A stretch of 64,000 nucleotides of DNA from an uncultured Gammaproteobacteria bacterium (GTDB lineage: Bacteria; Patescibacteriota; Microgenomatia; Levybacterales; GWA1-39-11). A program made the translations under genes and the position numbers. The notes beneath the pieces were generated by a model. It did no database searches. It was given only the letters and a program-made list of their open reading frames with translations, and was not told where the DNA came from. The stretch lies in the NCBI GenBank assembly GCA_964472415.1, contig CAYYLC010000004.1, positions 33,110 to 97,109 on the forward strand, read 5' to 3'. This document shows positions 8,741 to 56,400 of this stretch, piece after piece; within the stretch, counting starts at the first letter, position 1; each line of letters starts with the position of its first letter.

Positions 8741-9358
8741 TCACAGGTACTTTCTGATAAATTTAGTCCTATGATGAGCCGTCGCCCCGAAATATCCTAA
8801 TGCATTTCTATGATCTGCCGTTCCATATCCTTTATTCTTATCCCATCCATATTGTGAGTATTCTCGTGCAAGATGTTTCATGTGTCTATCCCGTGTAACC
8901 TTCGCAAGAATCGAAGCAGCTGCAATACTAACACTTACTCTGTCTCCCTTAACAATTGGCGTCTGTAAGGCATTACCTGGAATTGAAAACGCATCAATAA
9001 GCATATGCAAGTTCTGGAAATCCTCTGCAGCCTTTTCATAAACTCTTTGCATACCAAGCGTAGTTGCTCTTCCAATACCCATTGTATTTATACTAGAAAG
9101 ATCAATAAGCTCTACATGAGAGAAGAGTGCATGAGTAGTAATTTCCTGAAAAAGTAATTCTCGTTTTTTTTCAGAGAGTAACTTCGAATCATTAATCTCG
9201 AACGCCAATAATTTTTCAGCATGAATCTTATCAAATAAAACTCCTGCGACCGCAAGAGGCCCTGCAAATGCCCCACGCCCTGCCTCATCTATTCCTAAAA
9301 CCTGCAAACCTGCCTTCCATAATGGTATTTCGAATTTAAAATCAGAAAGAATATGCAT
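8741..9358 (-). CDS. rnhB: ribonuclease HII
   Basis: N-terminal 'GIDEAGRGAFAGPLAVA' motif and RNase HII length. Confidence 0.85.
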   Translation of the reverse strand: MHILSDFKFEIPLWKAGLQVLGIDEAGRGAFAGPLAVAGVLFDKIHAEKLLAFEINDSKLLSEKKRELLFQEITTHALFSHVELIDLSSINTMGIGRATTLGMQRVYEKAAEDFQNLHMLIDAFSIPGNALQTPIVKGDRVSVSIAAASILAKVTRDRHMKHLAREYSQYGWDKNKGYGTADHRNALGYFGATAHHRTKFIRKYL

Positions 9359-19796: not shown

Positions 19797-19899
19797 GCGA
19801 TACGATTAACCGAAAGGGTGGTAGATGTATCTACCACCCTTTTTCCCACCCAATACTGCAAATATCTCATTTTCATATTTTGTCTCATAGTCTTGAAGA

Positions 19900-24099: not shown

Positions 24100-24142
24100 A
24101 AAGACAAAGAAAAAGCCCCGTGCGAAAATATATGCACGGGGC
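24100..24142 (-). terminator. rho-independent terminator (minus strand)
   Basis: A 9-bp GC stem (GCCCCGTGC...GCACGGGGC) with a 10-nt loop, followed on the minus strand by TTTTTCTTTGTCTTT. Confidence 0.55.
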
Positions 24143-24149
24143 TAAAAAT

Positions 24150-24500
24150 AAATTCTCCATGATAGAAATCCTTGATCCGACAGCAATTGTCGGAATAGTA
24201 TATTTCACACGGTTCGTTGGCAAAGAGCTACCTTCGCCTGATGAAGCCTTGCTTTCCCCCACAAGGCGTCGAGATAGCACGAATTGACGTGCTTCGCTCT
24301 GCTAACCTCACGCCTTTCCGGGCTGCGAAGCGATTTGCTTCGCGTTCCAGATATACAGCGCGCTGCTTTTCTGTCATCTGACTCGAGCTATCCTCGAGTC
24401 TCTGACTATACTCATCCCTGGGCGGCAACACACCCTCCTAGTGGTGTTTCTAGGCCAGAACTACTTCTGGCATTCTCAACGAACACAATAATTATATATA
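24150..24500 (-). ncRNA. GC-rich structured segment: candidate unidentified ncRNA or small basic-protein gene (67-aa GTG-start ORF 24228..24431)
   Basis: Local GC is ~52-55% against a ~35% background. There are several perfect hairpins (e.g. GCGAAGC-gattt-GCTTCGC). It is capped by the terminator at 24100..24142. The identity is not resolved. Confidence 0.25.
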
Positions 24501-25789: not shown

Positions 25790-25816
25790 TCTTCTATCCC
25801 TTCTCGCGACAATCGC

Positions 25817-26122
25817 TCATGTATGTCTTGAATCGTACTGATACGTACTAATTCGAAACCATACTCCATACTCTATCAAAGAATATGGTGGTTCAGAATC
25901 AGAGCGCAAGCTCAGCGCTAAATAGTGCTGGAATTGCAATCTTTCACTCTTCTTTATGAATTGTGGCGGGGTTGATTCCTGTTCTACACAGCAGAAAAAA
26001 GATCGTACTATTACCCGACCTCTTATCTTGATAAATTCCCTCCCAACATGTGATTCGTAAAGCAAAAAGTATTGCTCCACGAGAAAAAGACGAGAGATCC
26101 TCCTCCTCTTTTCATGGAGCAA
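25817..26122 (-). CDS. hypothetical protein (on GC-rich island)
   Basis: 101-aa ORF. Confidence 0.25.
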   Translation of the reverse strand: MLHEKRRRISRLFLVEQYFLLYESHVGREFIKIRGRVIVRSFFCCVEQESTPPQFIKKSERLQFQHYLALSLRSDSEPPYSLIEYGVWFRISTYQYDSRHT

Positions 26123-26420
26123 TTTGAAGTGATGTTAATGTACTCTTTCTGATTCGAAATTAATCTTGCAAATTAGAGATAATTTGAATCAAATCGAAAG
26201 TATATTATATACCTTCCTGCAAGATTTATTGCAAATAAGAAATGTGGTGGGAAATAAAAGATTATCTCCTACGAGAACAGCAGATAATAACTATCTCCCA
26301 CCACGAATTTTACCCTCTATGAGGGTACCGTATTTCCTCTGAAAATCGGTGTTATAATGCACCCTTATCTCTTTTTCTAAGAGATAATAAAATCCAGAGC
26401 AAGCTGAATTGTCGACATGT

Positions 26421-26819
26421 TCAGATAGATACGGCAAGGAAAAAGGAATAGCTCCTCCGAAAAAGTCCGGGGAACATTGCCATACCCTGGCTATCAAATC
26501 GTGTCACATATGGGTAGCCACGACCTGATTTTCTCACGAGAACTAACTGGACCTTCTCAAAGAAAAGGGCATGTTGTACCTGAAATTGACTCTGCACTAA
26601 CTGCAGACTGCAATGGATGTCAATCTCCCCTTTCTCCGTCTTGGTCGGCTGAATTGTAAAACTCAGCAGACACTGGGTGAAGGAATGGGATTGGTGAGAT
26701 TGATTTGTGTCTATGCGCAGGTCCCGCGCATAAACCTCTTGGACTATTTCCGAAACTTGCATCGCCTGAGTCTTGTACCGAATCACAACGCCTCCTCGGC
26801 AAACTTCCTTGCCAAACAT
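26421..26819 (-). CDS. hypothetical protein (on GC-rich island)
   Basis: 132-aa ORF. Confidence 0.25.
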   Translation of the reverse strand: MFGKEVCRGGVVIRYKTQAMQVSEIVQEVYARDLRIDTNQSHQSHSFTQCLLSFTIQPTKTEKGEIDIHCSLQLVQSQFQVQHALFFEKVQLVLVRKSGRGYPYVTRFDSQGMAMFPGLFRRSYSFFLAVSI

Positions 26820-27106
26820 TTTGAGACATGATCCCCACAGGCATTGCAGTACTCCTCCTGCATTTGTTGAAAATGATGTTCGTATTCTACGATTGCTCGT
26901 AGGTCACCTTGGACTTTTGTGCTCCATCCACAGGAGCACAAAATACTCCACTTGCCATCCTCAAGTTCTCTCACCTGCACCATTTCGTGTTGTGCAGGCA
27001 CTATGCGTCTTTGAGACACTGATCGACTCCTTTCATTGTAAATACGTGTGATTTCTGCCTCACGAGGAAAACGCATCTCTTGCGTCCTCTTCATGAGGCA
27101 GAACAT
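26783..27106 (-). CDS. hypothetical Cys-containing protein (on GC-rich island)
   Basis: 107 aa with 'CSCGWS' and 'CNACGDH', a possible zinc-binding pair. Confidence 0.3.
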   Translation of the reverse strand: MFCLMKRTQEMRFPREAEITRIYNERSRSVSQRRIVPAQHEMVQVRELEDGKWSILCSCGWSTKVQGDLRAIVEYEHHFQQMQEEYCNACGDHVSKCLARKFAEEAL

Positions 27107-27256
27107 AGAGGGCTGTTAAAGAGCAATTCCCCCAACTAATAACCCATGCAAAACGGATTTATATCGGGGAAATTCAGATGTAAAGTATATCAAATAATTA
27201 GTATTATGTCAATGACTATGGGATTATTTTTGAACGTAAGTCTATAAGATTTTATG

Positions 27257-27328
27257 AGCCGAAGGTGGGATTTGAACCCACGACTTACTCTTTACGAAAG
27301 AGTTACTCTACCTCTGAGTTACTTCGGC
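27257..27328 (-). tRNA. tRNA-Thr (anticodon CGU)
   Basis: Minus-strand cloverleaf. Acceptor GCCGAAG/CTTCGGC, anticodon stem ACTCT/AGAGT with loop TTCGTAA, T arm GTGGG-TTCAAAT-CCCAC. Confidence 0.85.
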
Positions 27329-27906
27329 ACAATAATTTTCAAATTATAACAAAAAATTATCCTTATCTCCTTCTCAAAGAATAATTATTTCTTCGCCTCA
27401 AATTATTGAAAAAGAGAGGAGGTACGTATATACATTCAGCCTCACGAATATATTATCAAATATAGTCAAATTACATCAATTTACAACCGATCTATATCAG
27501 AGACTTGAGGGAATTTTGTTATCAACTTAATTTGAGGTGAACAAAACAATACGAATCACATGTTGAGGAATAATATCTGGCTCCCAAGTCTTTATAACGC
27601 ATCGATTTCCCCTTATATCCAGGTGAGTAGGACTCATCCGCCAACCAAGGCTGACAGATATATGGCCCGTACACTCGAATAAACTGAGATTACTCGTATT
27701 GATTAGTCGTAGAGAAAAACAATTATGCGTTTTAAAGAGCTTTAGAGCCATAGCCAGAATACCCTAGAACCAGAATAAAGTCAAGCAAATATACTGAAAA
27801 TTTTATCTATCATTATTTATATAGAAATATAACTTACAGTATAGTAATAATTCATATTTTTCTATCACATTCTCACAAAAAATATCTATTTTTGCTAAAA
27901 TAACAT

Positions 27907-28686
27907 ATGGATCTTGTCTCTCTTACTATACTCTCGCTCATAGAGGGGGTCACTGAATTTCTCCCTATATCTTCAACTGGGCACCTTATCCTTGCTTCAA
28001 ATCTCTTGGCACTCCCAAATACTGACTTTCTCAAAACATTTCAAATCGTTATCCAGCTCGGCGCAGTACTTGCAGTAATACATCTATACTGGAAACAAAT
28101 ATATCAAAATCCTAGTCTCCTCAAAAAACTTGTCTTCGGCATGACTCCGACTATTATTGTAGGGACAACTCTCTATCCTATTCTCAAAAGTGTCTTATTA
28201 GAAAGCAGTCAAATTGTATCAATCAGCCTTATTATTGGAGGAATTCTCATTATTTTTATAGAACACAAGCTCAAAAAGTATGAAAGGGGCATACGAAAAT
28301 CTACACAAGAATTGCAAAATATCACTAACAGGCAGGCATTTATTACAGGTCTGACCCAAAGCATCGCAATAATTCCAGGAGTCAGTCGTTCTGGTGCCAG
28401 TATCTTTGGCGGAATGCTATTTGGGATGAATAGAAAAACTGCGACCGAATTCTCATTCCTTCTCGCACTTCCGACGATTGCTGCCGCGAGTGGATTTGAT
28501 CTTATTCAAACTGCGCCATCTTTCTCTCAGAAAGAAATACTATATCTGATAGCTGGAATCATGCTCTCGTTTATCGTAGCGCTATTCGCCATAAAATGGC
28601 TCCTCAAATATATAACCACGCATTCTTTTGTGGTATTTGGATGGTATCGAATTATTCTAGGGATAATCTTTCTTATAATCCTATAA
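27907..28686 (+). CDS. uppP: undecaprenyl-diphosphatase
   Basis: 'EGVTEFLPISSTGHLIL' N-terminus and overall UppP/BacA topology. Confidence 0.85.
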   Translation: MDLVSLTILSLIEGVTEFLPISSTGHLILASNLLALPNTDFLKTFQIVIQLGAVLAVIHLYWKQIYQNPSLLKKLVFGMTPTIIVGTTLYPILKSVLLESSQIVSISLIIGGILIIFIEHKLKKYERGIRKSTQELQNITNRQAFITGLTQSIAIIPGVSRSGASIFGGMLFGMNRKTATEFSFLLALPTIAAASGFDLIQTAPSFSQKEILYLIAGIMLSFIVALFAIKWLLKYITTHSFVVFGWYRIILGIIFLIIL

Positions 28687-28979
28687 TATTGACTTTAAGG
28701 TAAAATCTAGCATACTTGCGCCACATTATCGAGGCAAATATATTGCACTACTTACTCACGATGATCGCTTCCCCGTCTACTCGGCGAGATACAAATTCTT
28801 TAACAATTCTCTTACGCACTTGTCCCACGGAAAGATGGCACTCTTATATTATCGTCTGTTCGTGGAAAAAACAAAATCAAAGCCCTAAAAGAGGAAAGGG
28901 GCACCATGTGTAGAAGGAGAGAGCTTGTTTTTCCCTACACGCCAACCTATTTTATAGATTTCACCCATGCTAACGAGTA

Positions 28980-28988
28980 TGCTATAAT
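28980..28988 (+). promoter_or_regulatory. extended -10 element (TGcTATAAT) directly upstream of the transposase-like gene
   Basis: 'tatgctataat' lies 9-17 bp upstream of the ATG at 28997. No good -35 is present. Confidence 0.3.
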
Positions 28989-28996
28989 CCCCTCAA

Positions 28997-29641
28997 ATGC
29001 CATCAAAATACGTTTTACGAGACTTCAAGCAGGGTGAATACTACCACGTCGCAAATTATGGCGTAGACAAACGGAGTATATTTGAAGATGAAGAGGATTT
29101 TAGAACCTTTCTCTACTATCTAAAAGTATATCTACTTCCCAAAGAAACACTTGAAAAAATGCCCAATCTCCCCAAACGAATGCTCTCAAAAAATAGACAT
29201 TCAGAGGTAGAGCTTCTCTCATATAGCCTCATGCCAAACCATTTTCATTTATTACTGGGCGAAAAAGAGCTCGGCGGAATATCCTTAATCATGAAGCAAC
29301 TCTCAAATGCGTACACCAAGTATTTTAATGAGCGCCACAAACGCTCCGGTAGCTTATTTGAAGGCCCTTTTAAAGCCGCACATGTCAAAAGCGATGAAAT
29401 CATACAAGTCACCCGCTACATTCACCTAAACCCATTCCTTGCGGGACTCGTAGATGATCCTGATAAATACCGCTGGTCTGACTTTCCAACGTACACAAAT
29501 TCGCAAGAGGTGAATATCTCAAACACAAGCCCAGTACTTTCACAATTCAATACGCCAGCTGACTACAAACATTTTGTGCATAACTACATGGACTATGCTG
29601 AAAAAATAAAGGGACTCGACCACGTTTTAATAGATAATTAA
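28997..29641 (+). CDS. IS200/IS605-like Y1 (HUH) transposase family protein (PF01797-like, long form)
   Basis: HUH motif 'LMPNHFHLLL' and a downstream catalytic-Tyr region 'VTRYIHLNP...DPDKYRWSDF'. At 214 aa it is longer than canonical IS200 TnpA. Confidence 0.6.
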   Translation: MPSKYVLRDFKQGEYYHVANYGVDKRSIFEDEEDFRTFLYYLKVYLLPKETLEKMPNLPKRMLSKNRHSEVELLSYSLMPNHFHLLLGEKELGGISLIMKQLSNAYTKYFNERHKRSGSLFEGPFKAAHVKSDEIIQVTRYIHLNPFLAGLVDDPDKYRWSDFPTYTNSQEVNISNTSPVLSQFNTPADYKHFVHNYMDYAEKIKGLDHVLIDN

Positions 29642-29836
29642 AGCTATCTATATCAAACTTCTCTTTTCTTCTACCATCTCACTCAAACTACAGAAAAAAT
29701 TCTGTGAACATTTCATAAGAAAAAGCTCCACCGAAGCTCTCTCAACAAACAGATATCCAAATAAAATAAGAGGATATGCAACAATTCCGCTGCACATTTT
29801 AAAAAAAAGATTAGGAGGAAAGCAGCTTAGATGAAT

Positions 29837-30049
29837 TTACGAATCTGTTTTTTGCTGAATACCCAAAAGGTATAATACTGCTTCTTTTTTATACCGTCTA
29901 TCACCACGAGAATTGATACGAATCGCAGGGAGCTTGCCACGCTTACCCCATCGTTTAATTGTTAGTGGAGAGACTCGCAATAATTCGGCAACTTCACGGA
30001 CAGTGAGGAGATCTGGTAATTCTGCTATTGATATCTTTTGATTAGCCAT
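29837..30049 (-). CDS. excisionase/MerR-type HTH DNA-binding protein
   Basis: 'LLTVREVAELLRVSPLTIKRWGKRGKLPAIRINSRGDRRYKKEAV' is an Xis-family HTH, the same family as 22447..22722. Confidence 0.55.
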   Translation of the reverse strand: MANQKISIAELPDLLTVREVAELLRVSPLTIKRWGKRGKLPAIRINSRGDRRYKKEAVLYLLGIQQKTDS

Positions 30050-30470
30050 TTTCTAAATCTTAACTAAACCTACTGTATCTAATGTAGTAAAACAACCACA
30101 CATTGTCAAGGGCAAAAACAAAGTAAAAAGCAAAATGATATTATTTAATATATATTGATTCATATTGCTATATATTTGAGCGTAAGTACTATCAAACAAT
30201 ACTCTAATACTATATTTTATATCAATACACTACCAGGTCTCACCCATTTCCTCCATGAAAACTTGCTGCTTTTAAAACGTATTTACTTTTTACATCCACC
30301 AGAAAAAGACATTTTTTCAAAATAATATAATAAGAACAATAATCAGTATATTCAGAAATAAGCGAGGAGATCTCTCGATAAAACGAAACCTTCTCTATTA
30401 AAATATGAAAAAAGTATGACTTGAAAAACCATAATGTTCACTCTTCAATATATGTCTCTTTTTGAACTAA

Positions 30471-31232
30471 TTACTTTGAGGGAGAAAAACGCTCTTGAAG
30501 TACTTTGAATACAAACATCGGAAGTGCTTTTTGCCTTTTAAACCTCCACGGCTGAATAATAAGTCGAAACAGCCACTCAAGCCCAATACTCCTCATAATT
30601 TTTGGGGCACGCGGAACAGATCCACTTAAAAAATCAAATGCACCACCGACTCCCATCGCTGAGGTTACAGGAAGATTTGAGAGATTTTTCGCTATCCACT
30701 TCTCTTGCTTTGGCGATCCCAATGCCACAAACAACATGTCTATATGCTTCCCTTTCAGTTCTCTTATATCCCATTTATCATTTTCATATACAACTTTGAG
30801 ATTTGGATAGATTTTTTTTAAGCAGCTGGAAGTCTTCACTGCTACACCCGGGGCTGCACCAAAAAATCCCGTCGTTAAGCCCTGTTCTGCACATTTTGAT
30901 ACTAACTCTTGCATGAAATCTACTCCAGTAAGACGACTCTTGATGCCCAATCCGAGGAATCGTGCTGCCATGAGCACACCAATACCATCCGAAAGAGACC
31001 ATTGAGCCTGATTAAGGACAGATCTATACTCCTTATCCTTCAAAGCTATCATTATAAGTTCTGGGTTTGGGGTTACTATATAGAATTTATCCTTCCGATA
31101 CTTCAGTCCTTTAATGATTTCTAAAAGGATATAATCCTTTTTTTCCGTGGAAAGAGAAACTCCTAATAATGTAGTCACAGATAATCTCTTCATAATACTA
31201 AAAGACTTTATACATATCGCACAATTCACCAA
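30471..31232 (-). CDS. WecB/TagA/CpsF-family glycosyltransferase
   Basis: 'IVTPNPE', 'DG.G' and a C-terminal 'GLEWLFRL..QPWRFKRQ' are characteristic of Glyco_tran_WecB. Confidence 0.7.
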   Translation of the reverse strand: MVNCAICIKSFSIMKRLSVTTLLGVSLSTEKKDYILLEIIKGLKYRKDKFYIVTPNPELIMIALKDKEYRSVLNQAQWSLSDGIGVLMAARFLGLGIKSRLTGVDFMQELVSKCAEQGLTTGFFGAAPGVAVKTSSCLKKIYPNLKVVYENDKWDIRELKGKHIDMLFVALGSPKQEKWIAKNLSNLPVTSAMGVGGAFDFLSGSVPRAPKIMRSIGLEWLFRLIIQPWRFKRQKALPMFVFKVLQERFSPSK

Positions 31233-31485: not shown

Positions 31486-32493
31486 CTACTTTTTATTGAT
31501 GCTTCTTTTATATAATTCTAAATTTTCTATAGCGACCCCTGTTCCACGCACCACACAATACAATGGGTCTTCAGCAACATATGCTGGAACTCCTGTTTCA
31601 CGAGTAATGTATTTATCTATATTTCTCAAAAGCATAGTGCCTCCGGTAAGAACTATCCCCTTCTCAATAATGTCAGATGACAACTCTGGAGGAGTCTTCT
31701 CAAAAACCTCACGTATAGCTGAGATAATTTTTTTCAGGATCGGCTCGATCCCTTCAAAGACTTGCCCTTCGGTAATCTCTTCTTGCCGCGGCAAACCAGA
31801 AACACTATCGCGGCCTCGAATCTCCATCTTTTTTTCAGAGCTTTCTGAAGGAATTGCATTTCCTAATTTTATTTTCATGTCCTCAGATGAACGCTCTCCA
31901 ATCAATATTCCGAATTTCTTCCTGACATAGTTCACCATTGCCTCCTGAAGTGCATCGCCACCAACGCGTACAGATGCGTGATTTACAATCCCACCCAAAG
32001 AAATCACCGCAACGTCTGTAGTTCCGCCTCCACTATCCAAAATCATATGCCCGCTCGCTTGAGCTATCGGAATTTTTGCACCAATTGCAGCTGCTAACGG
32101 CTCTTCTATTAAATACACCGCCCGAGCTCCCGCAGCATGAGTCGCATCAAGCACTGCCCGTTTTTCTACCTGAGTAATTCCTGAAGGAATACACACCATA
32201 ACTTCAGGTTTTATCAAACGAGATTTCCCTGACACTTTCTGGATAAAATACTCAAGCATCGATTGTGTCACCTGATAATCAGCGATCACTCCGTCTTTGA
32301 GCGGTCGAGATGCAACAATATTTCCTGGTGTTCTCCCAAGCATGTCTTTTGCCTCGAGCCCTACAGCAACAACTTGATTCGTGTCTGCGCGTACTGCAAC
32401 AACTGTCGGCTCATTCAACACAACACCCTGCCCACCGAGATACACGAGCATATTCGCCGTCCCTAAATCTATTCCTATTCGTTTACTAAACAT
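31486..32493 (-). CDS. mreB: rod shape-determining protein MreB
   Basis: 'IGIDLGTANMLVY' and actin-fold motifs throughout. 335 aa. Confidence 0.9.
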   Translation of the reverse strand: MFSKRIGIDLGTANMLVYLGGQGVVLNEPTVVAVRADTNQVVAVGLEAKDMLGRTPGNIVASRPLKDGVIADYQVTQSMLEYFIQKVSGKSRLIKPEVMVCIPSGITQVEKRAVLDATHAAGARAVYLIEEPLAAAIGAKIPIAQASGHMILDSGGGTTDVAVISLGGIVNHASVRVGGDALQEAMVNYVRKKFGILIGERSSEDMKIKLGNAIPSESSEKKMEIRGRDSVSGLPRQEEITEGQVFEGIEPILKKIISAIREVFEKTPPELSSDIIEKGIVLTGGTMLLRNIDKYITRETGVPAYVAEDPLYCVVRGTGVAIENLELYKRSINKK

Positions 32494-35030: not shown

Positions 35031-36542
35031 ATGATTTCTAGAATTTATCTTCTTCTGCCTTTGCTGGGCATAAGCATCGGTATTACAGGGCTCTTCCTTT
35101 TTGTTTTCACGAAAAATGCTCACGCAGCAACACTTATAAACGCAAGTAACACTATTACAACATCTCGCCCTTCAGCCGCTTCACCCTTTTCTTCAGATGT
35201 TTCTGGTACTGACACTACAGCAGCGATTCTGAATAATGGATCGTTCTATCTTGCATCAGATTCTGCACAAATCAGACAAGGGCAAAGTGGCGCACTTATT
35301 GATGCAGCAACAATTATCGCTTCACAATCTGCAGCACTCACTACTGTGTATTTTTCAGAGGCTGTCGGCGCTGGGGCTGGAGCTGACTCAGATGTTCTCA
35401 TTGTACCAATCACTGCTATGCATAGAATCCAATTTACTATACCTCAAACGATTCCTACCTCTGGAGACATTGTACTCACCTTCCCAATACTTGAGACTGG
35501 AGATGCAAATAATGAAGCTTCTCCTTCTGCCTCTACATTCCAGTTCAACGACCTCGATACGAACGCTGCCACACTCATTCACGTAGTAGATGATGGAACG
35601 GATATCACCGCAAATATTACTGCCGCTGCCACAAATCCTGCGAGCGCTGGGGACTCACCAGAGATCATCATTACCCTTAATAGTGGAAGCATTGTCTCAG
35701 GAAGCGTTGTAGATATATTTATCGGTTGCACAACTATTGCAGCTGGTGACTGCTCTGCCCAGACACCGACACTCATTAACCCGACAAAGACTGCATCAGC
35801 TGGGACTGCTGATGTCTGGAAAATAAATGCTCAGACTCGAGATGCATCTGATGTGAATCTCGATAACGCTACTATTGCTATCGGCACTATTGAATCTGTT
35901 ACCGTTCGGGCAACTGTAGATCCAACACTCTCCTTCACTATTTCTGGGATTGGAAATGGATCAGCAATTAATCTCGGAAACACGACCGGATGCTTGCAAA
36001 CGGAAACAACAAATGCTGGGATTGATTCTACTTCTACTGAGGTAAACCTTGGACTCCTCGCTAATACTCCATCAGGAACTGATGTAAAAGTAGGAAATAT
36101 TGCAGCACAAAGAATCAACATAACCACGAATGCTGCTGGAGGATATATTCTCGCTGCAACATCATCCGGACAACTCATCAACCCAGAAACCGGATTTTTC
36201 CTTAACTCCTCTACCACTCCGACTGCATTCCCTTCAAGTGGCGCTGACTGGTTCGGTATTCATCCGTGTGGACTTGATGTAACTACTGCCACGTGGAATT
36301 CTACTGCAAGTACTGCATGTAGCAGCTTTGTAAGTGGTTCAACAGATCCGATTTGTCTGTATGCGTGGCCTACACAGAGTGCACCACTTACTCTTGCATC
36401 AGATGCAGTAGGACCTATTGGTAACTCACTTGTTACTGGAAATGGAGTAATTTCTGTTGCGTACGCCGCGTCTGTAGATCCGGGAATCCCCCCAGGATCA
36501 TATAGAACAGTAATAACGTATGTGGCAACACCAGTATTCTAG
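35031..36542 (+). CDS. secreted S/T-rich surface protein with WxL-like C-terminal domain (CscB/C-like), paralog A
   Basis: Signal peptide (AHA|A) and a C-terminal ~180 aa with 'LSFTISGIGNGSAINLGN...' and a terminal 'YRTVITYVATPVF'. These parallel WxL domain features ('l.l.svP..inFG', a terminal 'Y.GTLTWTL...P'). Confidence 0.45.
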   Translation: MISRIYLLLPLLGISIGITGLFLFVFTKNAHAATLINASNTITTSRPSAASPFSSDVSGTDTTAAILNNGSFYLASDSAQIRQGQSGALIDAATIIASQSAALTTVYFSEAVGAGAGADSDVLIVPITAMHRIQFTIPQTIPTSGDIVLTFPILETGDANNEASPSASTFQFNDLDTNAATLIHVVDDGTDITANITAAATNPASAGDSPEIIITLNSGSIVSGSVVDIFIGCTTIAAGDCSAQTPTLINPTKTASAGTADVWKINAQTRDASDVNLDNATIAIGTIESVTVRATVDPTLSFTISGIGNGSAINLGNTTGCLQTETTNAGIDSTSTEVNLGLLANTPSGTDVKVGNIAAQRINITTNAAGGYILAATSSGQLINPETGFFLNSSTTPTAFPSSGADWFGIHPCGLDVTTATWNSTASTACSSFVSGSTDPICLYAWPTQSAPLTLASDAVGPIGNSLVTGNGVISVAYAASVDPGIPPGSYRTVITYVATPVF

Positions 36543-36579: not shown

Positions 36580-37563
36580 ATGAAACATCCTGCTCAAGCA
36601 AAATATTTTATAAAAATAACACTCCCCGCAATCCTTATTTCCTTCTTCTTCGTGGCTCTCGCTCAGATCGTATTCGCACAAGAAGCACCTCAAAGAAGCA
36701 TCACAATATCTCCGCCAACCATTGAGCATACTCTTATCCCAGGAGAACGTGCTGAAGGGGTTCTCAAAGTTACAAATGGAGGAAATACTGACCTCACATT
36801 CCAGGCAAATATTCATGACTTTATCGTAGAAGATAAGATTGGAACTCCAAATCTTCTTGCTGATGAAACCTTAACTGAAAAATATTCTGCTGCCACTTGG
36901 CTTGCAGTGACGCCAAATTCCTTCACTGTTCCAGCAGGAACTACGAAGGAGCTAAGCTATTTTCTTCAGGTGCCAGCTGATGCTGCACCAGGCGGAAGAT
37001 ACGCTGCAGTAGTCTATGAGCCAGTTAATATTCTAGATGTTGAAGGGACCGGTGCTGGAGTAAACACCCAATCACTTTCACTCTTTTACATAACTATTGA
37101 TGGACCAATCACAGAAGATGCTGAAGTTGTAAATTTTTCTATTCCAGGATTTTCTGAATATCCTCCTGTAACTGTTTCTACAGAAATTAAAAATAATGGT
37201 CCGCTTCATATTAAACCAAGCGGAAGTATTATTATCCGGAATATGTTTGGCAAAGAAATCGCACGACATGAATTCACTGGCGGAAACATCTTCCCAGAGG
37301 CAACACTCCTGTATGAAAATGAGTTTTTCTCAGATTCAAAGATTCGCGTTGGGCGCTATACGGCAGAACTTTCCACAGCATTTGGTCGCGATCTCAATAT
37401 CCCCCTTGAAGCAACCGCATCATTCATCATCTTCCCTTGGAAAATTGCAGCAGGAATCGCACTTCTTATCGCAATCCTCGTAGTCACAGTTGTGCTCATA
37501 AGAAATAAAAAAACACCTAAAAATCCTCGACCCGAAGCGACGCCTCAACCAACCATAAAATAG
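36580..37563 (+). CDS. DUF916/DUF3324-like cell-surface protein with C-terminal TM anchor (CscA-like)
   Basis: Signal peptide, 'ITISPPTIEHTLIPGERAEGVLKVTNGGNTDLTF' (DUF916-like pattern), a later 'IIIRNMFGKEIARHEF' (DUF3324-like), a C-terminal TM helix and a basic tail. Confidence 0.45.
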   Translation: MKHPAQAKYFIKITLPAILISFFFVALAQIVFAQEAPQRSITISPPTIEHTLIPGERAEGVLKVTNGGNTDLTFQANIHDFIVEDKIGTPNLLADETLTEKYSAATWLAVTPNSFTVPAGTTKELSYFLQVPADAAPGGRYAAVVYEPVNILDVEGTGAGVNTQSLSLFYITIDGPITEDAEVVNFSIPGFSEYPPVTVSTEIKNNGPLHIKPSGSIIIRNMFGKEIARHEFTGGNIFPEATLLYENEFFSDSKIRVGRYTAELSTAFGRDLNIPLEATASFIIFPWKIAAGIALLIAILVVTVVLIRNKKTPKNPRPEATPQPTIK

Positions 37564-37572
37564 GGAAATAGT

Positions 37573-39051
37573 TTGACAGAAGATTTTATTTCTGCGCACA
37601 ATAATACAATGAAGATAATTTTTGTACTTATGATATCCGCAATTCTCTTTTTTGTAAAAATCTCTCATGCGAATGCGGCAGACCTTATCAATACTCGTGA
37701 CACACTCTCAACTTCTCGCCCATCAGCAGCTTCTCCTTTTACCAGTAATGCAGCCTCTAATGACCGGACTATTACAATTTTGAATAACGGATCGTTCTAT
37801 CTTGCATCAGATTCTGCACAAATAATCCGACACTCAACAGGCACAATTCTCGCAACTGATATTCCTATATCTTCTCAATCTGCGGGGCTTTCTACTATCT
37901 ATCTCGGAGATGATATCGGTACGAATACAACTTCAGGAGATGATATATTGCTCGTTCCAATTACCTCAACTCATACCATACGATTTACTACTGCCTCAGA
38001 AATCCCCGCTGGTGGAGATATACTCCTTACATTTCCGGGAGCAGCGAATAACTCTGCTTCTCCTTCTGCAACTACGTTTGCCTTTAATGGGCTAAATAGC
38101 ACTGGTGGACTTCCAGGAGGAATTTCTAGTCATAACATTTCATGTAATACAAATTCCTTTGTTTTTTCTCCACAAATCATGTGTGAAACAACAGGCTCAG
38201 TTCCGGCTGGCACTACAATAACTATTCTTATTGGCTGCACTGCACAGTCCGGTGGAAATTGTACGACTCAATCTCCGACACTCATCAATCCAACAAAGAC
38301 TACAACCACTGGAACCGCAGATATCTGGAAAATATTTATCCAGACCCGAGATGCAACAGACATAGAACTCGACTCTGCAACCGTTGCAATCGGCACAATA
38401 GATTCTGTTACTGTTCGTGCGTCTATTGATCCCTCTCTTACCTTTGCAATTACAGGAATCGGAAATGGTTCAGCAGTTAACCTTGGAAACACGACCGGAT
38501 GCTTGCAAACGGAAATTACCAATTCGGGCCTCAATTCAACCGCAACTGAAATAAATCTTGGACTCCTTGCAGATACTCCATCAGGAATTGATGTAAGAGT
38601 AGGAAATATTGCAGCACAACGAATCAATATTAGCACCAATGCTGCGAATGGCTATACGCTATCAGCAACATCATCCGGTCAACTTATCAATCCTACCACT
38701 GGATTTTTCCTCGCATCTTCTACCACTCCAACCGCATTCCCTTCAAATAGTTCAGATTGGTTCGGTATCCATCCGTGTGGACTTGATGTAACTACTGCCA
38801 CGTGGAATTCTACTGCAAGTACTAGCTGCAATACGTATATTTCGGGTTCAACAGATCCGATTTGTCTGTATGCGTGGCCTACACAGAGTGCACCACTTAC
38901 TCTTGCATCAGATGCAGTAGGACCTATTGGTAACTCACTTGTTACTGGAAATGGAGTAATTTCTGTTGCGTACGCCGCGTCTACTGATGCAGGCGTTCCC
39001 CCAGGAAGTTATTCTACAGTTATCACCTATACTGCAACTCCAGTCTTCTAG
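37573..39051 (+). CDS. secreted S/T-rich surface protein with WxL-like C-terminal domain, paralog A'
   Basis: Same architecture as 35031..36542. The 3' region contains 138 identical nucleotides. Confidence 0.45.
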   Translation: MTEDFISAHNNTMKIIFVLMISAILFFVKISHANAADLINTRDTLSTSRPSAASPFTSNAASNDRTITILNNGSFYLASDSAQIIRHSTGTILATDIPISSQSAGLSTIYLGDDIGTNTTSGDDILLVPITSTHTIRFTTASEIPAGGDILLTFPGAANNSASPSATTFAFNGLNSTGGLPGGISSHNISCNTNSFVFSPQIMCETTGSVPAGTTITILIGCTAQSGGNCTTQSPTLINPTKTTTTGTADIWKIFIQTRDATDIELDSATVAIGTIDSVTVRASIDPSLTFAITGIGNGSAVNLGNTTGCLQTEITNSGLNSTATEINLGLLADTPSGIDVRVGNIAAQRINISTNAANGYTLSATSSGQLINPTTGFFLASSTTPTAFPSNSSDWFGIHPCGLDVTTATWNSTASTSCNTYISGSTDPICLYAWPTQSAPLTLASDAVGPIGNSLVTGNGVISVAYAASTDAGVPPGSYSTVITYTATPVF

Positions 39052-53451: not shown

Positions 53452-56400
53452 ATGGAATTTATTGCACTTTTCAAAGACTATCTTTCAAAGAAGAAAATAA
53501 CAAACAAGACGACTGTCAAAAACTATCTCTCTGATATTCGTCATTTTGTGAATTGGTATGAGAAATCATTTGGTATCGCCTTTTCTCCAACAGAATTTAC
53601 CGATGATATTATAAAGCTCTATGAAGGATCTTCTGGTGCTCCGATCCTGGGTGGAAATATTTCAACAGAGAACAAGCTCTCACACTCCTCCCTGAAGCGC
53701 CATCTTTCCTCATTGAGAAAGTTTGCACTATTTCTGACAGAAAATAAACAAGTAGAGAAGAATCCATTTCATCAAGGAAAGGTTAATGGACAGGACTCGA
53801 CACCTGTCGATATTTGGCATATTCAGGAATTCAAAGATTACCTGAAATTTAAGAAAGCATCCCCTCTAACAATAAAGAACTATCTCACAGATATACATTC
53901 TTTCCGGAGATGGTATGAGAACTCTCTCGGGGAGAATTCTGAAGATTTAAGCTTTCCTCGTATCAATAATACGATCGTTTCTGAATACAAAACCCGCCTC
54001 CACGAATATAAAGGTGCTGCACCACGCACAATTAACCGAAAGCTTTCTTCTCTAAGAAAATATGTTGAATTTGCCATCGGCGCATACTACATGAGTGAAA
54101 ACACACTCCATGAAACGACTGCCACAAAACCATTCCTCATCTCCGAAAATGAGGCCAAAGAAGAGAATAAGCTATCACTTACTGAGATAAAATCCCACAA
54201 AATCAATCTAAACTATTCCTCCTTTCCCCCTATCAGACTTATCCAAACTCTGATAATTCTGCCCTATCTCTTCCTTGAAGGATTTCTCGCAGCAAAAATT
54301 GCAGAACTTCTCGGAACAGTAGCACCCCTCACTCTTGCTGCACAGAAACTTACTCCAGCTCCAAAAATATCCTCAATTCCCACCAAACCTTCTGAACTTT
54401 TAAAGGTAAAAGGATATGAGAAAAAGTTCTACGCTCCCCAAGATATTTCCACGAGCAATCTCTCGTCTCCTGAAAAAATCTGGCATAAACTAAAACACAA
54501 TAGACCGAAATGGTATAAAAAATATCATAATACTCCAATAGTTCACTATATTCATTTTGCGATTCTTATCATTTTTGCTGCAGGGGTCGGAGTTGCGCTC
54601 TATAGAAACTTAGTAACTGATACAAAAAGCCCACTCTTTGCAGCCCCCACCTCTCCACCTCGAGTACTCTCCTTCCAAGGTCGGCTTACTGATAATTTGA
54701 ATAATCCCATAACCACTGCGACTGATATTCGCTTCGCGATATATGATGATATTGCAGCATCCGGGTCTGCACTGCTCTGGCAAGAAGTCCATCACGCAAC
54801 AAATCCTGACCAAGATGGAATTTTTTCTGTTTTACTCGGAACTCAAACTGCGATTCCTGATAGTGTATTTTTAGAAAATAATGACATCTATTTAGGAGTA
54901 ACGATCGAACAAACAGAAGAATTAGCACCTCGGAGAAGAATTGCATCAGTTCCCTATGCCGCAAATTCAGAAAGCCTCCAAGGAATGCGCCCCATCACTG
55001 ACACAAGCGCTGGAACCACAAACGTTGTTCTTGCACTCGATTCTTCTGGAGATCTCACAATAGGCGGAGCCGCAAATCCAACATTTTCCGCAACAGGAGG
55101 CCAATTCTCTCTTTCCGGCGATATTTTACTCCTGACAACCGAAACCGGCACAGATTCAAACATAGTACTCTCTCCTGATGGAATCGGTCAGATTGATTTG
55201 CAGAAAACGCTTGTAAATACTTCAACTAACGGAAATCTTGTCCCTGGGGGAGTAGAAGTTAATGATAAATTTGGTGTACTTGCTACAGAATCTGCAGTTG
55301 CCGCATTTATCGTGAATAATGACGGGCTTTCAGATATTTTCACTGCATCCGCATCAGGTGCAACCCGTTTTACTATAGAAAGTGATGGAACATTGATTGC
55401 TCCTAACTACAATACTGCCGGAGGAGTACTCTGGGCAAATGGAAGCGGAGAGATTAACCAATCAACAGGTGGCCTCTCTGGACAATGCCTCCAATCTACT
55501 GGGGGAACTGCTCCCACGTGGGGAGCATGTGACAGCTCGGCTGGTGGTATGTTCCAAGAGCTTGCTGGTGCGATCATACCAAACAATACAACACTTGATT
55601 TTCTCCTCGGTGGAACCGCTACCTCATCCGCCAAATTCTCGGTTCTTAACATGAATTCGGGAACACCAATCGCATCAATATCGGCAAATTTTGGTAACAA
55701 CGCAACCTACCTAACTGGAGATGGAACTCTTGCAACTACAAACCGTCGTGATCTTATCCTCGGAAACTCCTCCTCCTATAATACAACGGGGAATGTTCTT
55801 ATAAACACGAACGGAACAGGGAGAGTCGGGATTGGTACAGGAGCACCATCAACCAAACTTGATGTAAATGGATCAGGAGGCGTAGCGCTATTTGGAACTG
55901 CAAGTCTTGTTGATCAATATATCTCCCTAAGAAGTCCCTCAACGGGAGTATCATTTGGTATTGATGCAAATCTCAATGGAGGAAGCGGCGCGGGACTCAT
56001 ACAAGCAGGGACCAGCAAAGCCCTCGCGTTTGATGCAAACAATGGAACATTCGGCTCTGCCACCACGCCAGATTTATATATTGATACTACAGGGTATGTT
56101 GGGATTGGTGATGCATCACCTACTGCTCTTTTCACGGTAGGAAATGGTGACCTTTTCCAAGTTAACGCAAGCGGCGCAATTGCAGCCGCAACGGGAATAA
56201 CTTCATCTGGCACTATCACCCTTTCAAATCTTAATACAAATGGAGGAATACTATACGCAAACGGATCAGGAGTACTTACCCAAACCGGAGCTGGTACCTC
56301 TTCTCAATGTCTTCTCGGTGGCACTACTCCTACATGGGGAACATGCGCTGATGGAGCTGGCGCATTTACGATCGATGCAGCAAATGGACTAACTGTCCAG

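What the first reader, a model, noticed from the sequence alone, without database searches (positions are those of the whole stretch)
28700..30060. Stand-alone long-form IS200/IS605-like Y1 HUH transposase homolog beside an Xis-type HTH gene
The 214-aa ORF has the HUH motif (NHFHLLL) and the catalytic-Tyr region (VTRYIHLNP), but is ~70 aa longer than IS200 TnpA. No tnpB/OrfB partner is present.

A divergently oriented 70-aa Xis-family HTH gene lies 195 bp downstream. Imperfect hairpins ('GTGTAGAAGG...CCCTACAC') sit just upstream, where IS200 ends usually carry subterminal hairpins.

It could be a domesticated RAYT-like enzyme, a minimal mobile element, or part of an uncharacterised recombination module.
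Basis: partly seen in the sequence, partly recalled or inferred. Interest (0 to 1): 0.5.

Follow-up and report, generated by a model that had tools for sequence, protein, structure and literature searches.

The report
Chromosomally fixed RAYT-like HUH nuclease gene
The 214-aa ORF is a real, catalytically intact relative of the REP-associated tyrosine transposases (RAYTs), sitting as a single, slowly evolving chromosomal gene in a Patescibacteria genome. It has none of the flanking hairpins that bracket most of its relatives, so it is a domesticated-type gene, not a mobile element or a module with the neighbouring HTH gene.

Summary
The ORF 28997-29641 (+) is real. It hits Pfam Y1_Tnp above threshold, has HUH (H82, H84) and Tyr141 in an RYIHLNP motif, and its confident model is closest to E. 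coli TnpA-REP (4ER8).

It belongs to a large Patescibacteria family of 214-217 aa. The motifs match class 2 TnpA-Y1, subclass 2.1, and not IS200.

In four orthologous loci (74-86% aa identity) it keeps one position, uppP-Y1-HTH-wecG-mreB. It is more conserved than uppP and wecG while synonymous sites are saturated. There is no tnpB, no second copy, no terminal repeats and no repeated palindrome in 64 + 7 kb.

The HTH gene is convergent, not divergent, and adjoins Y1 only in the orthologs.

Unexpectedly, 60 of 77 distant relatives are bracketed by one cognate GC-rich hairpin repeat on both sides (4 of 321 control ORFs). Some also carry dispersed inverted doublets and in-frame copies inside the gene. 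So the family is a REP/RAYT system, and this lineage has kept the enzyme without the repeats.

Verdict: a new member of a known kind, of modest interest.

The parts
28997..29641 (+). Y1 HUH (RAYT-like, TnpA-Y1 class 2) gene, 214 aa
   Evidence: ORF. Pfam Y1_Tnp 40.6 bits. NCBIfam REP_Tyr_transpos 46.6 bits, below its cut-off of 80. AF2 model pLDDT 90.9. Best PDB fold match is 4er8_A TnpA-REP, E 4.4e-6. The start codon is fixed by the invariant M1-P2 of the family.
29237..29257 (+). HUH motif NHFHLLL (aa 81-87); H82 and H84 are the metal ligands
   Evidence: Read from the sequence. H82 and H84 are invariant in 40 homologs. They align with the HUH of ISDra2 TnpA.
29414..29434 (+). Catalytic-Tyr motif RYIHLNP (aa 140-146); Tyr141 = 29417-29419; N145 is the class 2 'Y---NP' residue
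   Evidence: R140, Y141, H143 and L144 are invariant; I142, N145 and P146 are nearly invariant. Y141 aligns with the catalytic Tyr region of ISDra2 TnpA. The class 2 signature is from PMC6006769.
29135..29212 (+). Family-specific insertion of about 26 aa (aa 47-72) between helix alphaA and strand beta2
   Evidence: It is absent from the closest cultured relatives, the Legionella and Rhodospirillum plasmid 'transposases'. It is modelled as two short helices with pLDDT 87-97. In some relatives this segment carries an in-frame copy of the flanking hairpin.
28960..28988 (+). Own promoter TTCACC-17 nt-TGcTATAAT, ending 8 nt before the ATG with no Shine-Dalgarno; implies a leaderless or near-leaderless mRNA (inferred)
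   Evidence: Best promoter-like site in the region, 10 of 12 matches plus TG. TGnTATAAT followed by an 8-nt gap is the only upstream element conserved in the orthologs L001, L003 and L100. DNA similarity to L100 begins at 28980.
28687..28979 (.). Non-conserved spacer between uppP and the Y1 promoter; not part of the element
   Evidence: No homology to the orthologous spacers or to any fetched locus, and no protein relic. The corresponding spacer is 38 nt in L100.
28908..28940 (+).
   Evidence: z = -0.34 against shuffles. Not conserved. Not repeated in the window.
29837..30049 (-). Neighbouring 70-aa MerR/excisionase-type HTH gene, convergent with Y1; a syntenic neighbour, not a partner
   Evidence: HTH_17 43.6 bits, MerR_1, TIGR01764 excise 37.5 bits. 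It has its own promoter at 30109-30081 and a terminator-like hairpin at 29797-29774. It is 90-94% identical in the orthologs. A homolog lies next to Y1 only in the orthologs.

Best explanation
The ORF is a vertically inherited, single-copy chromosomal gene for a RAYT-class Y1 HUH single-strand DNA nuclease/ligase. In the TnpA-Y1 classification it is class 2, with motifs like subclass 2.1. It belongs to a large Patescibacteria-specific family.

Shown here:
- The fold and active site are intact (H82/H84 HUH, Tyr141, N145).
- The gene holds the same position, uppP-Y1-HTH-wecG-mreB, in four lineages whose synonymous sites are saturated.
- It evolves more slowly than two of its housekeeping neighbours.
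- What is conserved is exactly its own extended -10 promoter plus the ORF.
- It has no element ends, no tnpB and no second copy.
- No repeated palindrome occurs within 71 kb.

Inferred from the solved relatives TnpA-REP, IS608 TnpA and ISDra2 TnpA:
- The protein binds a DNA hairpin exposed in single-stranded DNA.
- It cleaves next to the hairpin through a 5'-phosphotyrosyl link to Tyr141, with a divalent metal held by H82, H84 and N145, and it can rejoin the ends.

Inferred from relatives of the same family:
- The ancestor was the enzyme of a REP/RAYT system. Most relatives are bracketed by a cognate hairpin repeat.
- This lineage has lost the cis repeats but kept the enzyme. So here it is a domesticated-type host gene, not a transposable unit.
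- The mRNA is probably leaderless.
- The adjacent HTH gene is an independent small regulator.
For: Identity and active site:
- Pfam Y1_Tnp scores above its gathering threshold.
- A profile of the family hits ISDra2 TnpA (2.5e-5) and TnpA-REP 4er8 (4.6e-3).
- The AF2 model has pLDDT 90.9.
- By Foldseek, 4er8_A ranks first at E 4.4e-6, ahead of the IS608 and ISDra2 transposases.
- H82, H84, R140, Y141, W160 and S161 are invariant.
- The motifs NHFH, LFEG and YIHLNP, with WSD here (WSS in the family consensus), match the subclass 2.1 row of Table 1 in PMC6006769.

Fixed position:
- The same gene order is found in L001, L003 and L100.
- In L100 the spacers are only 38 and 32 nt.

Selection:
- Y1 aa identity is 86% and 74%, with pN 0.10-0.18 and pS 0.78-0.89.
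- uppP is 64-68% identical, wecG 50-55% and mreB 88-89%.

No ends or copies:
- Searches found none.

Family context:
- 60 of 77 relatives share a word of at least 12 nt between their two flanks, against 4 of 321 control ORFs, p = 2e-50.
- The hairpins lie a median of 50 nt upstream and 13 nt downstream.
- Hairpin classes co-vary with protein clades.
- Tandem paralogs, 35-44% identical, each have their own hairpin.
- Dispersed inverted doublets occur in L041.

Promoter:
-.
Against: - Only 64 kb plus a 7-kb extension, perhaps 7% of a genome of about 1 Mb, could be scanned. Cognate repeats elsewhere are not excluded.
- Two orthologous lineages (L001, L003) still carry small repeated palindromes near the gene. 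Loss of the repeats may therefore be recent or incomplete.
- NCBIfam's REP_Tyr_transpos model scores 46.6 bits, below its cut-off of 80.
- No activity, substrate or transcript has been measured.
- dN/dS could not be given as a ratio because dS is saturated.
- Subclass assignment rests on published motifs, not on the authors' HMMs.
Confidence: 0.75

Rival explanations
1. The gene is still the working enzyme of a REP/REPIN population that lies elsewhere in this genome, outside the 71 kb examined. It would be an ordinary REP-RAYT system whose REPtron has lost only its local repeats.
For: - Most relatives are REP-bracketed.
- The orthologous lineages L003 and L001 have repeated palindromes, one copy close to Y1 and others 6-7 kb away.
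- All catalytic residues are intact.
Against: - No repeated GC-containing hairpin family occurs outside coding tandem repeats in 64 + 7 kb. L003 shows six copies in 16.6 kb.
- The ortholog L100 also has none in 18 kb.
- The flanks of Y1 match nothing else in the window.
Confidence: 0.17
2. It is a minimal, TnpA-only IS200/IS605-type insertion sequence. The upstream hairpin would be a subterminal end.
For: - It hits the Pfam family named 'Transposase IS200 like'.
- Databases call its relatives 'transposase'.
- Relatives are bracketed by hairpins, in direct orientation in 43 of 60 cases.
Against: - The motifs are class 2 (NHFH, Y---NP), not IS200's DH[VI]H and Y---Q.
- The claimed hairpin is at chance level and not conserved.
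- There is no right-end structure or TIR.
- The gene is single copy.
- It sits at the same chromosomal site in four diverged lineages.
- It is more conserved than its housekeeping neighbours.
Confidence: 0.03
3. Y1 and the Xis-type HTH protein form a two-gene site-specific recombination or excision module.
For: - Adjacency is conserved in four orthologous loci.
- The HTH protein is very conserved, at 90-94%.
- It carries an excisionase-type domain.
Against: - The genes are convergent, with separate promoters and a terminator between them.
- No HTH homolog lies next to Y1 in about 90 loci of more distant relatives. The only one found is 2.6 kb away, in L008.
- There is no integrase or att-like repeat.
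- The whole uppP-to-mreB block is syntenic, so adjacency carries little information.
Confidence: 0.04
4. It is an inactive relic of a dead element, drifting towards loss.
For: It has lost the flanking repeats that its relatives possess.
Against: - Intact ORFs of 214-215 aa are found in all orthologs, with every catalytic residue kept.
- pN is 0.10-0.18 at saturated pS, and the protein is more conserved than uppP and wecG.
- The promoter is conserved.
Confidence: 0.01

Closest known systems
TnpA-REP / RAYT (REP-associated tyrosine transposase; E. coli structure 4ER8; TnpA-Y1 class 2)
   Same: - Y1 HUH fold, and the best structural match.
- The class 2 'Y---NP' Tyr motif, followed by a conserved W-S-S segment.
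- Low copy number, vertical inheritance and fixed synteny.
- Relatives of the same family are flanked by cognate hairpins, have dispersed inverted doublets, and have paralogs each with its own hairpin type.
   Different: - Only about 14% identity to 4ER8.
- It fails the NCBIfam equivalog cut-off (46.6 against 80).
- It is 214 aa against 165 aa, with an insertion of about 26 aa between alphaA and beta2 and a C-terminal helical tail of about 50 aa.
- This copy has no flanking or nearby REPs.
- The relatives' hairpins were not checked here for the canonical 5' GT[AG]G foot; the examples listed show no uniform one.
TnpA-Y1 subclass 2.1 (Quentin et al. 2018, PMC6006769) = Bertels RAYT Group 1 / 'TIRYT'
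   Same: - The motif set is NH[YF]H, F[EQ] in place of W[EQ], Y[IV]HLNP and the W-S-S proximal tail.
- The closest cultured homologs (up to 33% identity) are plasmid 'transposases' of Legionella and Rhodospirillum, of 235-287 aa. The Legionella one has sub-threshold DnaA_C- and HTH-like hits in its tail.
- Like subclass 2.1, this copy has no REPs.
   Different: - It lacks the distal C-terminal HTH domain.
- It carries the alphaA-beta2 insertion.
- It has no TIRs of the type GGGG[AT][CG]A[CG].
- Subclass 2.1 is reported to lack REPs, yet most Patescibacteria relatives of this gene are hairpin-bracketed.
- Candidate phyla are not mentioned in that paper.
IS200/IS605 TnpA (IS608, ISDra2; TnpA-Y1 subclass 1.1)
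   Same: The same HUH/Y1 catalytic core, and presumably the same ssDNA hairpin-dependent chemistry.
   Different: - It has no Y---Q motif and no DH[VI]H.
- It is about 60 aa longer.
- It has no subterminal hairpins, no tnpB and no multiple identical copies.
- It is chromosomally fixed.
TnpA-Y1 subclass 2.4 (REP copies inserted in frame inside tnpA-REP)
   Same: Several relatives of this gene carry in-frame copies of their own flanking hairpin inside the coding sequence.
   Different: - The positions differ. Here they are at aa 51-61 and aa 151-170. In subclass 2.4 they lie between the HUH and Tyr motifs.
- The motifs differ (YIxNNP and WQ in subclass 2.4).
- The window copy has no internal hairpin.

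Membership tests
Y1 HUH superfamily (Pfam PF01797) | HMM match above the gathering score | tested here: met
   40.6 bits against a cut-off of 23, aa 64-143.
Y1 HUH superfamily (Pfam PF01797) | HUH motif and a single catalytic Tyr on the following helix; TnpA-like fold | tested here: met
   H82/H84 and Y141 are invariant. The AF2 model has pLDDT 90.9. Foldseek finds 4er8, 2xma, 2a6m and related chains.
RAYT / TnpA-REP (TnpA-Y1 class 2) | Class 2 Tyr signature Y---NP | tested here: met
   The motif is Y141-IHL-N145-P146. The definition is from PMC6006769.
RAYT / TnpA-REP (TnpA-Y1 class 2) | Gene flanked by cognate REP hairpins (REPtron) | tested here: not met
   The window flanks have no significant hairpin and no shared repeat. 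The feature is met in 60 of 77 distant relatives.
RAYT / TnpA-REP (TnpA-Y1 class 2) | The same palindrome dispersed in many extragenic copies in the genome | tested here: not met
   None was found in 64 kb plus the 7-kb extension L096. The rest of the genome was not available.
RAYT / TnpA-REP (TnpA-Y1 class 2) | Single or low copy number, vertical inheritance | tested here: met
   One copy in the window. The same synteny is found in L001, L003 and L100. Purifying selection is strong.
RAYT / TnpA-REP (TnpA-Y1 class 2) | NCBIfam equivalog NF047646 at or above its cut-off | tested here: not met
   46.6 bits against a cut-off of 80.
TnpA-Y1 subclass 2.1 / TIRYT | Motifs NH[YF]H, FQ or W[EQ], Y[IV]HLNP and the SS proximal tail | tested here: met
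   The window has NHFH, LFEG, YIHLNP and WSD; the family consensus is WSS. The subclass HMMs were not available, so the comparison is at motif level only.
TnpA-Y1 subclass 2.1 / TIRYT | Distal C-terminal HTH domain (Bac_DnaA_C, HTH_23 or HTH_28) | tested here: not met
   Pfam finds no second domain. The protein ends about 50 aa after WSS. The Legionella homolog shows only sub-threshold hits to these HTH domains.
TnpA-Y1 subclass 2.1 / TIRYT | Terminal inverted repeats GGGG[AT][CG]A[CG] | tested here: not met
   The motif is absent from all three flanking spacers, and there are no significant inverted repeats.
IS200/IS605 insertion sequence | Subclass 1.1 motifs DH[VI]H and Y[IV]ENQ | tested here: not met
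   The window has NHFH and YIHLNP.
IS200/IS605 insertion sequence | Subterminal hairpins at both ends | tested here: not met
IS200/IS605 insertion sequence | Several near-identical copies; often a tnpB partner | tested here: not met
   Single copy in 64 kb. The neighbours are uppP, an HTH gene, wecG and mreB. Genome-wide copy number is not testable here.
Excisionase (Xis) - the neighbouring gene | Excisionase-type winged-helix domain | tested here: met
   TIGR01764 scores 37.5 bits against a cut-off of 28.8, and HTH_17 scores 43.6 bits.
Excisionase (Xis) - the neighbouring gene | Partner integrase and att sites in the same element | tested here: not met
   No integrase among the immediate neighbours, which are all housekeeping genes. 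No flanking repeats. The gene is syntenic with housekeeping genes in the orthologs.

The most novel reading that the evidence does not exclude
The Patescibacteria clade of subclass-2.1-like Y1 HUH proteins would form genuine REP/RAYT systems. That would be the first for the candidate phyla radiation, in a subclass reported to lack REPs.

The systems would have two unusual traits. Some repeats overlap the -35 box of the leaderless RAYT gene, and some genes hold in-frame copies of their own repeat.

The window lineage would then show the enzyme kept under strong purifying selection after its repeats disappeared. This would imply a cellular role for a RAYT that does not depend on REPs. It would run against the argument that RAYTs persist only through joint RAYT and REPIN benefit (bioRxiv 10.1101/2021.07.10.451892).
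Probability: 0.3. Interest if true: 0.6.

Novelty: new member of a known kind. Interest (0 to 1): 0.35.

Why it matters
For this window the result is mainly a correction. The gene is not a mobile element and not a recombination module. It should not be annotated as an active 'transposase' or used as a marker of a mobile region.

Two wider points follow:
- A very large Patescibacteria family that databases label 'transposase' behaves like RAYTs. Its members are bracketed by cognate hairpin repeats. The family has REPIN-like doublets, tandem paralogs each with its own hairpin, and repeat copies inside the gene. I found no description of this in the searchable literature.
- Orthologs with and without nearby repeats (L003 and L001 against the window and L100) encode an equally conserved enzyme. 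This natural contrast could show whether RAYTs have a host function apart from repeat propagation, a question the RAYT literature leaves open.

Tried and rejected
- REP search in the window. I used seeded direct and inverted repeats, canonical 12-16-mer counts and the outgroup hairpin AGGGGTTNAACCCCT with up to 3 mismatches. I also enumerated all perfect hairpins with stems of at least 6-7 bp and clustered them, and ran blastn-short of the three spacers against the window plus L096. Only coding tandem repeats and chance 11-13-mers turned up.
- Ends enclosing Y1 alone or Y1 plus HTH. Only AT-rich low-complexity matches were found, and there is no TIRYT motif.
- The strongest hairpin in the window (19813-19842, 13-bp stem) looked REP-like. 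It is a single copy followed by a T run after an ORF, so it is an intrinsic terminator.
- A possible decayed counterpart of L001's downstream hairpin. The alignment is too weak to claim homology.
- The spacer 28687-28979 as a relic of the deacetylase gene found in L003, or of anything else. No hit was found.
- Rfam over 23-31 kb at E up to 1 found only tRNAs above threshold.
- Defence context. PADLOC finds nothing for Y1. The HTH protein matches mad1 (40.7 bits), but this is generic HTH_17 similarity and no other MADS gene is nearby.
- Organism name. Cluster look-up returned no names. Two attempts to extend the window through end-proximal proteins failed because no exact product was on record.
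- A dN/dS ratio could not be computed because pS is saturated. I report pN, pS and relative conservation instead.
- Literature searches for REP or RAYT in Patescibacteria or the candidate phyla radiation found nothing relevant.
Full report
**1. What is at the coordinates**

The ORF 28997-29641 (+) encodes 214 aa. NHFHLLL is at aa 81-87 (nt 29237-29257). VTRYIHLNP is at aa 138-146, with Tyr141 at nt 29417-29419.

Pfam Y1_Tnp (PF01797) matches at 40.6 bits against a gathering score of 23. NCBIfam's equivalog model for REP-associated tyrosine transposases matches at 46.6 bits, below its cut-off of 80.

The gene 195 nt downstream (29837-30049, minus strand, 70 aa) is an HTH_17/MerR/excisionase-type protein. 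TIGR01764 scores 37.5 bits against a cut-off of 28.8. Because Y1 is on the plus strand and the HTH gene on the minus strand, their 3' ends face each other.

The neighbours are uppP/BacA (27907-28686), a WecG/TagA-type glycosyltransferase (30471-31232) and mreB (31486-32493). There is no tnpB. tblastn finds no second copy in 64 kb.

**2. The upstream 'hairpin'**

The segment 28908-28940 (GTGTAG...CTACAC) folds as ssDNA at -5.2 kcal/mol. Dinucleotide shuffles give -4.57 +/- 1.83, so z = -0.34.

It lies in a 293-nt spacer (28687-28979) that has no counterpart in the orthologs and no homology to anything fetched.

The only conserved upstream element is TGnTATAAT, ending 8 nt before the ATG. In the window this is the best promoter-like site, TTCACC-17-TATAAT with TG at 28960-28988. 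There is no Shine-Dalgarno sequence. I infer a leaderless or near-leaderless mRNA.

Nucleotide similarity to the ortholog L100 begins at 28980 and ends at the stop codon. So the conserved unit is exactly the promoter plus the ORF.

**3. The protein**

A search of the large protein collection returned 2642 relatives. The best 120 are nearly all 212-232 aa. Where named, they come from Microgenomates-type Patescibacteria (Curtissbacteria, Levybacteria, Daviesbacteria) and Saccharibacteria, and are labelled 'transposase'.

In an alignment of 40 members, H82, H84, R140, Y141, H143, L144 and S161 are invariant, together with M1 and P2. N145, P146 and W160 are nearly invariant.

A profile of this alignment hits ISDra2 TnpA (2.5e-5) and E. 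coli TnpA-REP 4ER8 (4.6e-3), with the Tyr regions aligned. The AlphaFold model is confident, at pLDDT 90.9 and pTM 0.89. Its best PDB match by Foldseek is 4er8_A (E 4.4e-6), followed by the ISDra2, IS608 and IS200 transposases.

The motif set is NHFH, LFEG in place of the W[EQ] motif, YIHLNP, and a W-S-S/D segment. This corresponds to subclass 2.1 of the TnpA-Y1 classification of Quentin et al., equal to Bertels' RAYT Group 1 or TIRYT. It does not correspond to the IS200 subclass 1.1, which has DH[VI]H and Y[IV]ENQ (PMC6006769).

The closest cultured homologs are plasmid 'transposases' of Legionella (287 aa, with sub-threshold DnaA_C/HTH-like hits in its tail) and Rhodospirillum (235 aa), at up to 33% identity. 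Compared with them, the Patescibacteria family lacks the distal HTH. It carries an insertion of about 26 aa (aa 47-72) between helix alphaA and strand beta2.

**4. Fixed chromosomal gene under purifying selection**

Four orthologous loci keep the order uppP-Y1-HTH-wecG-mreB: the window, L001 (86% aa identity), L100 (86%) and L003 (74%). In L100 the spacers on either side of Y1 are only 38 and 32 nt.

Between these lineages synonymous sites are saturated (pS 0.78-0.89), whereas pN for Y1 is 0.10-0.18. Y1 is 74-86% identical in protein. That is more conserved than uppP (64-68%) and wecG (50-55%), and close to mreB (88-89%).

A drifting relic or a recently arrived insertion sequence would not look like this.

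**5. No ends, no repeats in this genome segment**

These searches found only coding tandem repeats and chance matches of 11-13 nt:
- seeded repeat searches;
- k-mer counts;
- hairpin enumeration and clustering over the window and the 7-kb extension L096;
- blastn-short of the three spacers;
- a search for the hairpin type of the nearest outgroup;
- a search for the TIRYT terminal motif.

**6. The surprise: most relatives are hairpin-bracketed**

I examined the loci of more distant relatives (32-53% identity; L006-L095). The Y1 gene there is usually flanked on both sides by the same GC-rich hairpin.

One example is L018. GATTACACCCCAAGGGTGTAATC lies at -63 and at +15, with z = -5.5 and -4.5.

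Overall, 60 of 77 Y1 genes share an exact word of at least 12 nt between their 150-nt flanks. Only 4 of 321 control ORFs in the same loci do so (Fisher p = 2e-50). The median shared word is 18.5 nt. It starts a median of 50 nt before the ATG and 13 nt after the stop. The orientation is direct in 43 cases and inverted in 17.

Other features of these relatives:
- Hairpin types co-vary with protein clades: CAAGG..CCTTG, [AC]CACC..GGTG[GT] and AGGGGT..ACCCCT.
- Tandem paralogs only 35-44% identical each have their own hairpin.
- L041 has four further inverted doublets, 71 nt apart, dispersed over 5 kb. These are REPIN-like by the published definition.
- L064, L072 and L032 also have dispersed copies.
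- In about 15 loci, copies of the flanking hairpin lie in frame inside the gene, at nt 150-180 (aa 51-61, within the family-specific insertion) and nt 446-509 (aa 151-170).
- In many loci a TTGACA -35 box lies about 30-36 nt before the ATG, and in several (e.g. L039, L055, L086) it falls inside or at the centre of the upstream repeat. A -10 box then ends about 6-8 nt before the ATG.

These are the properties described for REPtrons. In-frame copies inside the gene are described for subclass 2.4 (PMC6006769). The motifs, however, are those of subclass 2.1, which is reported as REP-free. I found no paper on REP or RAYT in Patescibacteria.

**7. Where the window stands in that picture**

The nearest outgroup clade (P0020 and P0022, 51-53% identity) has AGGGGT..ACCCCT-type hairpins upstream and its own conserved synteny.

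Among the orthologs, L003 still has a hairpin at -72 with a second copy 7 kb away. It also has TCCACGATCGTGGA four times, twice upstream of Y1. L001 has a hairpin at +109 with another copy 6.4 kb away.

The window and L100 have none. The simplest reading is that the cis repeats were lost in this lineage while the enzyme was retained. This is an inference.

**8. The HTH gene**

It has its own promoter (30109-30081) and a terminator-like hairpin (29797-29774). It is 90-94% identical among the orthologs. A homolog lies next to Y1 only in those orthologs. In about 90 other loci the only one found is 2.6 kb away, in L008.

The PADLOC match to mad1 is generic HTH_17 similarity, with no other system genes nearby. 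I treat the gene as an independent small DNA-binding regulator that is simply part of a syntenic block.

**9. Mechanism**

The fold, the HUH motif and the Tyr are shown here. By analogy with TnpA-REP, IS608 TnpA and ISDra2 TnpA, I infer the following. The enzyme recognises a hairpin in single-stranded DNA. It cleaves beside the hairpin through a 5'-phosphotyrosyl intermediate on Tyr141, with a metal bound by H82, H84 and N145. It can rejoin the strands.

Its substrate in this genome is unknown.

**10. Verdict**

The element is a new member of a known kind.

Interest is modest for the window itself. It is somewhat higher for the family-level pattern, and for the contrast between orthologs with and without repeats.

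Noticed in passing
L006-L095 (e.g. L018 4938-4960 and 5666-5688; L036, L048, L050, L052, L058, L066): In most distant relatives the Y1 gene is bracketed by the same GC-rich hairpin. It lies about 50 nt upstream and about 13 nt downstream. 60 of 77 genes show this against 4 of 321 control ORFs. Hairpin classes co-vary with protein clades. This is a REPtron-like arrangement that I did not find described for Patescibacteria.
   Followed up: yes
L048 gene 5001-5672 (nt +173 and +452); also L043, L082, L064, L071, L072, L085, L042, L051, L052, L028, L084, L088: Copies of the flanking hairpin lie in frame inside the Y1 coding sequence, at two recurrent positions (aa 51-61 and aa 151-170). They do not change the protein length much. 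The first position falls in the family-specific insertion, which suggests the insertion may descend from a repeat.
   Followed up: partly
L041, 16/87, 2576/2647, 3510/3581 and 4748/4819 nt downstream of the Y1 stop: Four or more dispersed pairs of the hairpin CCACCTC[CG]GAGGTGG, mostly in inverted orientation, 71 nt apart. They are REPIN-like doublets in a Patescibacteria contig.
   Followed up: partly
Upstream 45 nt of Y1 genes in the window, L001, L003, L100 and many of L012-L094: In many loci a -10 box ends about 6-8 nt before the ATG, with no Shine-Dalgarno sequence, which points to leaderless mRNAs. In many relatives a TTGACA -35 box lies about 30-36 nt before the ATG, and in several it falls inside or at the centre of the upstream hairpin repeat (e.g. 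L039, L055, L086).
   Followed up: partly
L028, L053, L071, L079: Two Y1 paralogs lie within 5 kb of each other. In the three pairs compared (L028, L053, L071) they are only 35-44% identical, and each has its own cognate hairpin on both sides.
   Followed up: partly
L003 7595, 7726, 11813, 14513; L003 7929 and 15618; L001 1586 and 8757: Orthologous lineages of the window gene carry small repeated palindromes: TCCACGATCGTGGA, TTCGCCAACTGGCGAA and ATCCTGAACTTGATTCAGGAT. Some lie near Y1, and one apparently lies inside a coding region. The window and L100 have none.
   Followed up: partly
L003 8660-8691 and 9232-9263, with a GC-rich segment at about 9000-9140: In this ortholog the HTH gene is flanked by a perfect 32-nt AT-rich direct repeat. 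A GC-rich, apparently structured insert of about 130 nt lies upstream of it. Neither is present in the window.
   Followed up: no
window 53452-59934 (+), tandem 126-nt repeats at 56485-57395: A 2160-aa ORF. The precomputed Pfam hits of its identical product (seen in L096) are an N-terminal phage-integrase SAM-like domain followed by LVIVD/beta-propeller repeats. This is an unusual combination. Related repeats occur in the gene at 62806-63990 (-).
   Followed up: no
window 61751-62162: Imperfect tandem repeats of 42-60 nt, rich in ACACCAACACCA, within the ORF 61262-62572. In that reading frame they would give a Thr/Pro-rich low-complexity stretch, perhaps a surface protein (reading not checked).
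   Followed up: no
window 35031-36542 and 37573-39051: Two paralogous genes 2.5 kb apart share segments of 72-96% nucleotide identity. This looks like a recent tandem duplication around the gene at 36580-37563.
   Followed up: no
window 25800-27900 and 24100-24480: An ORF-poor stretch of about 2 kb around a tRNA (27257-27328) holds several stable hairpins (26311, 26712, 26915). A cluster of four hairpins lies at 24176-24471. No Rfam family reaches threshold.
   Followed up: partly
window 28687-28979: A lineage-specific 293-nt spacer lies between uppP and the Y1 promoter. It has no homology to the orthologous spacers (38-599 nt) or to any fetched locus. Its origin is unknown.
   Followed up: partly
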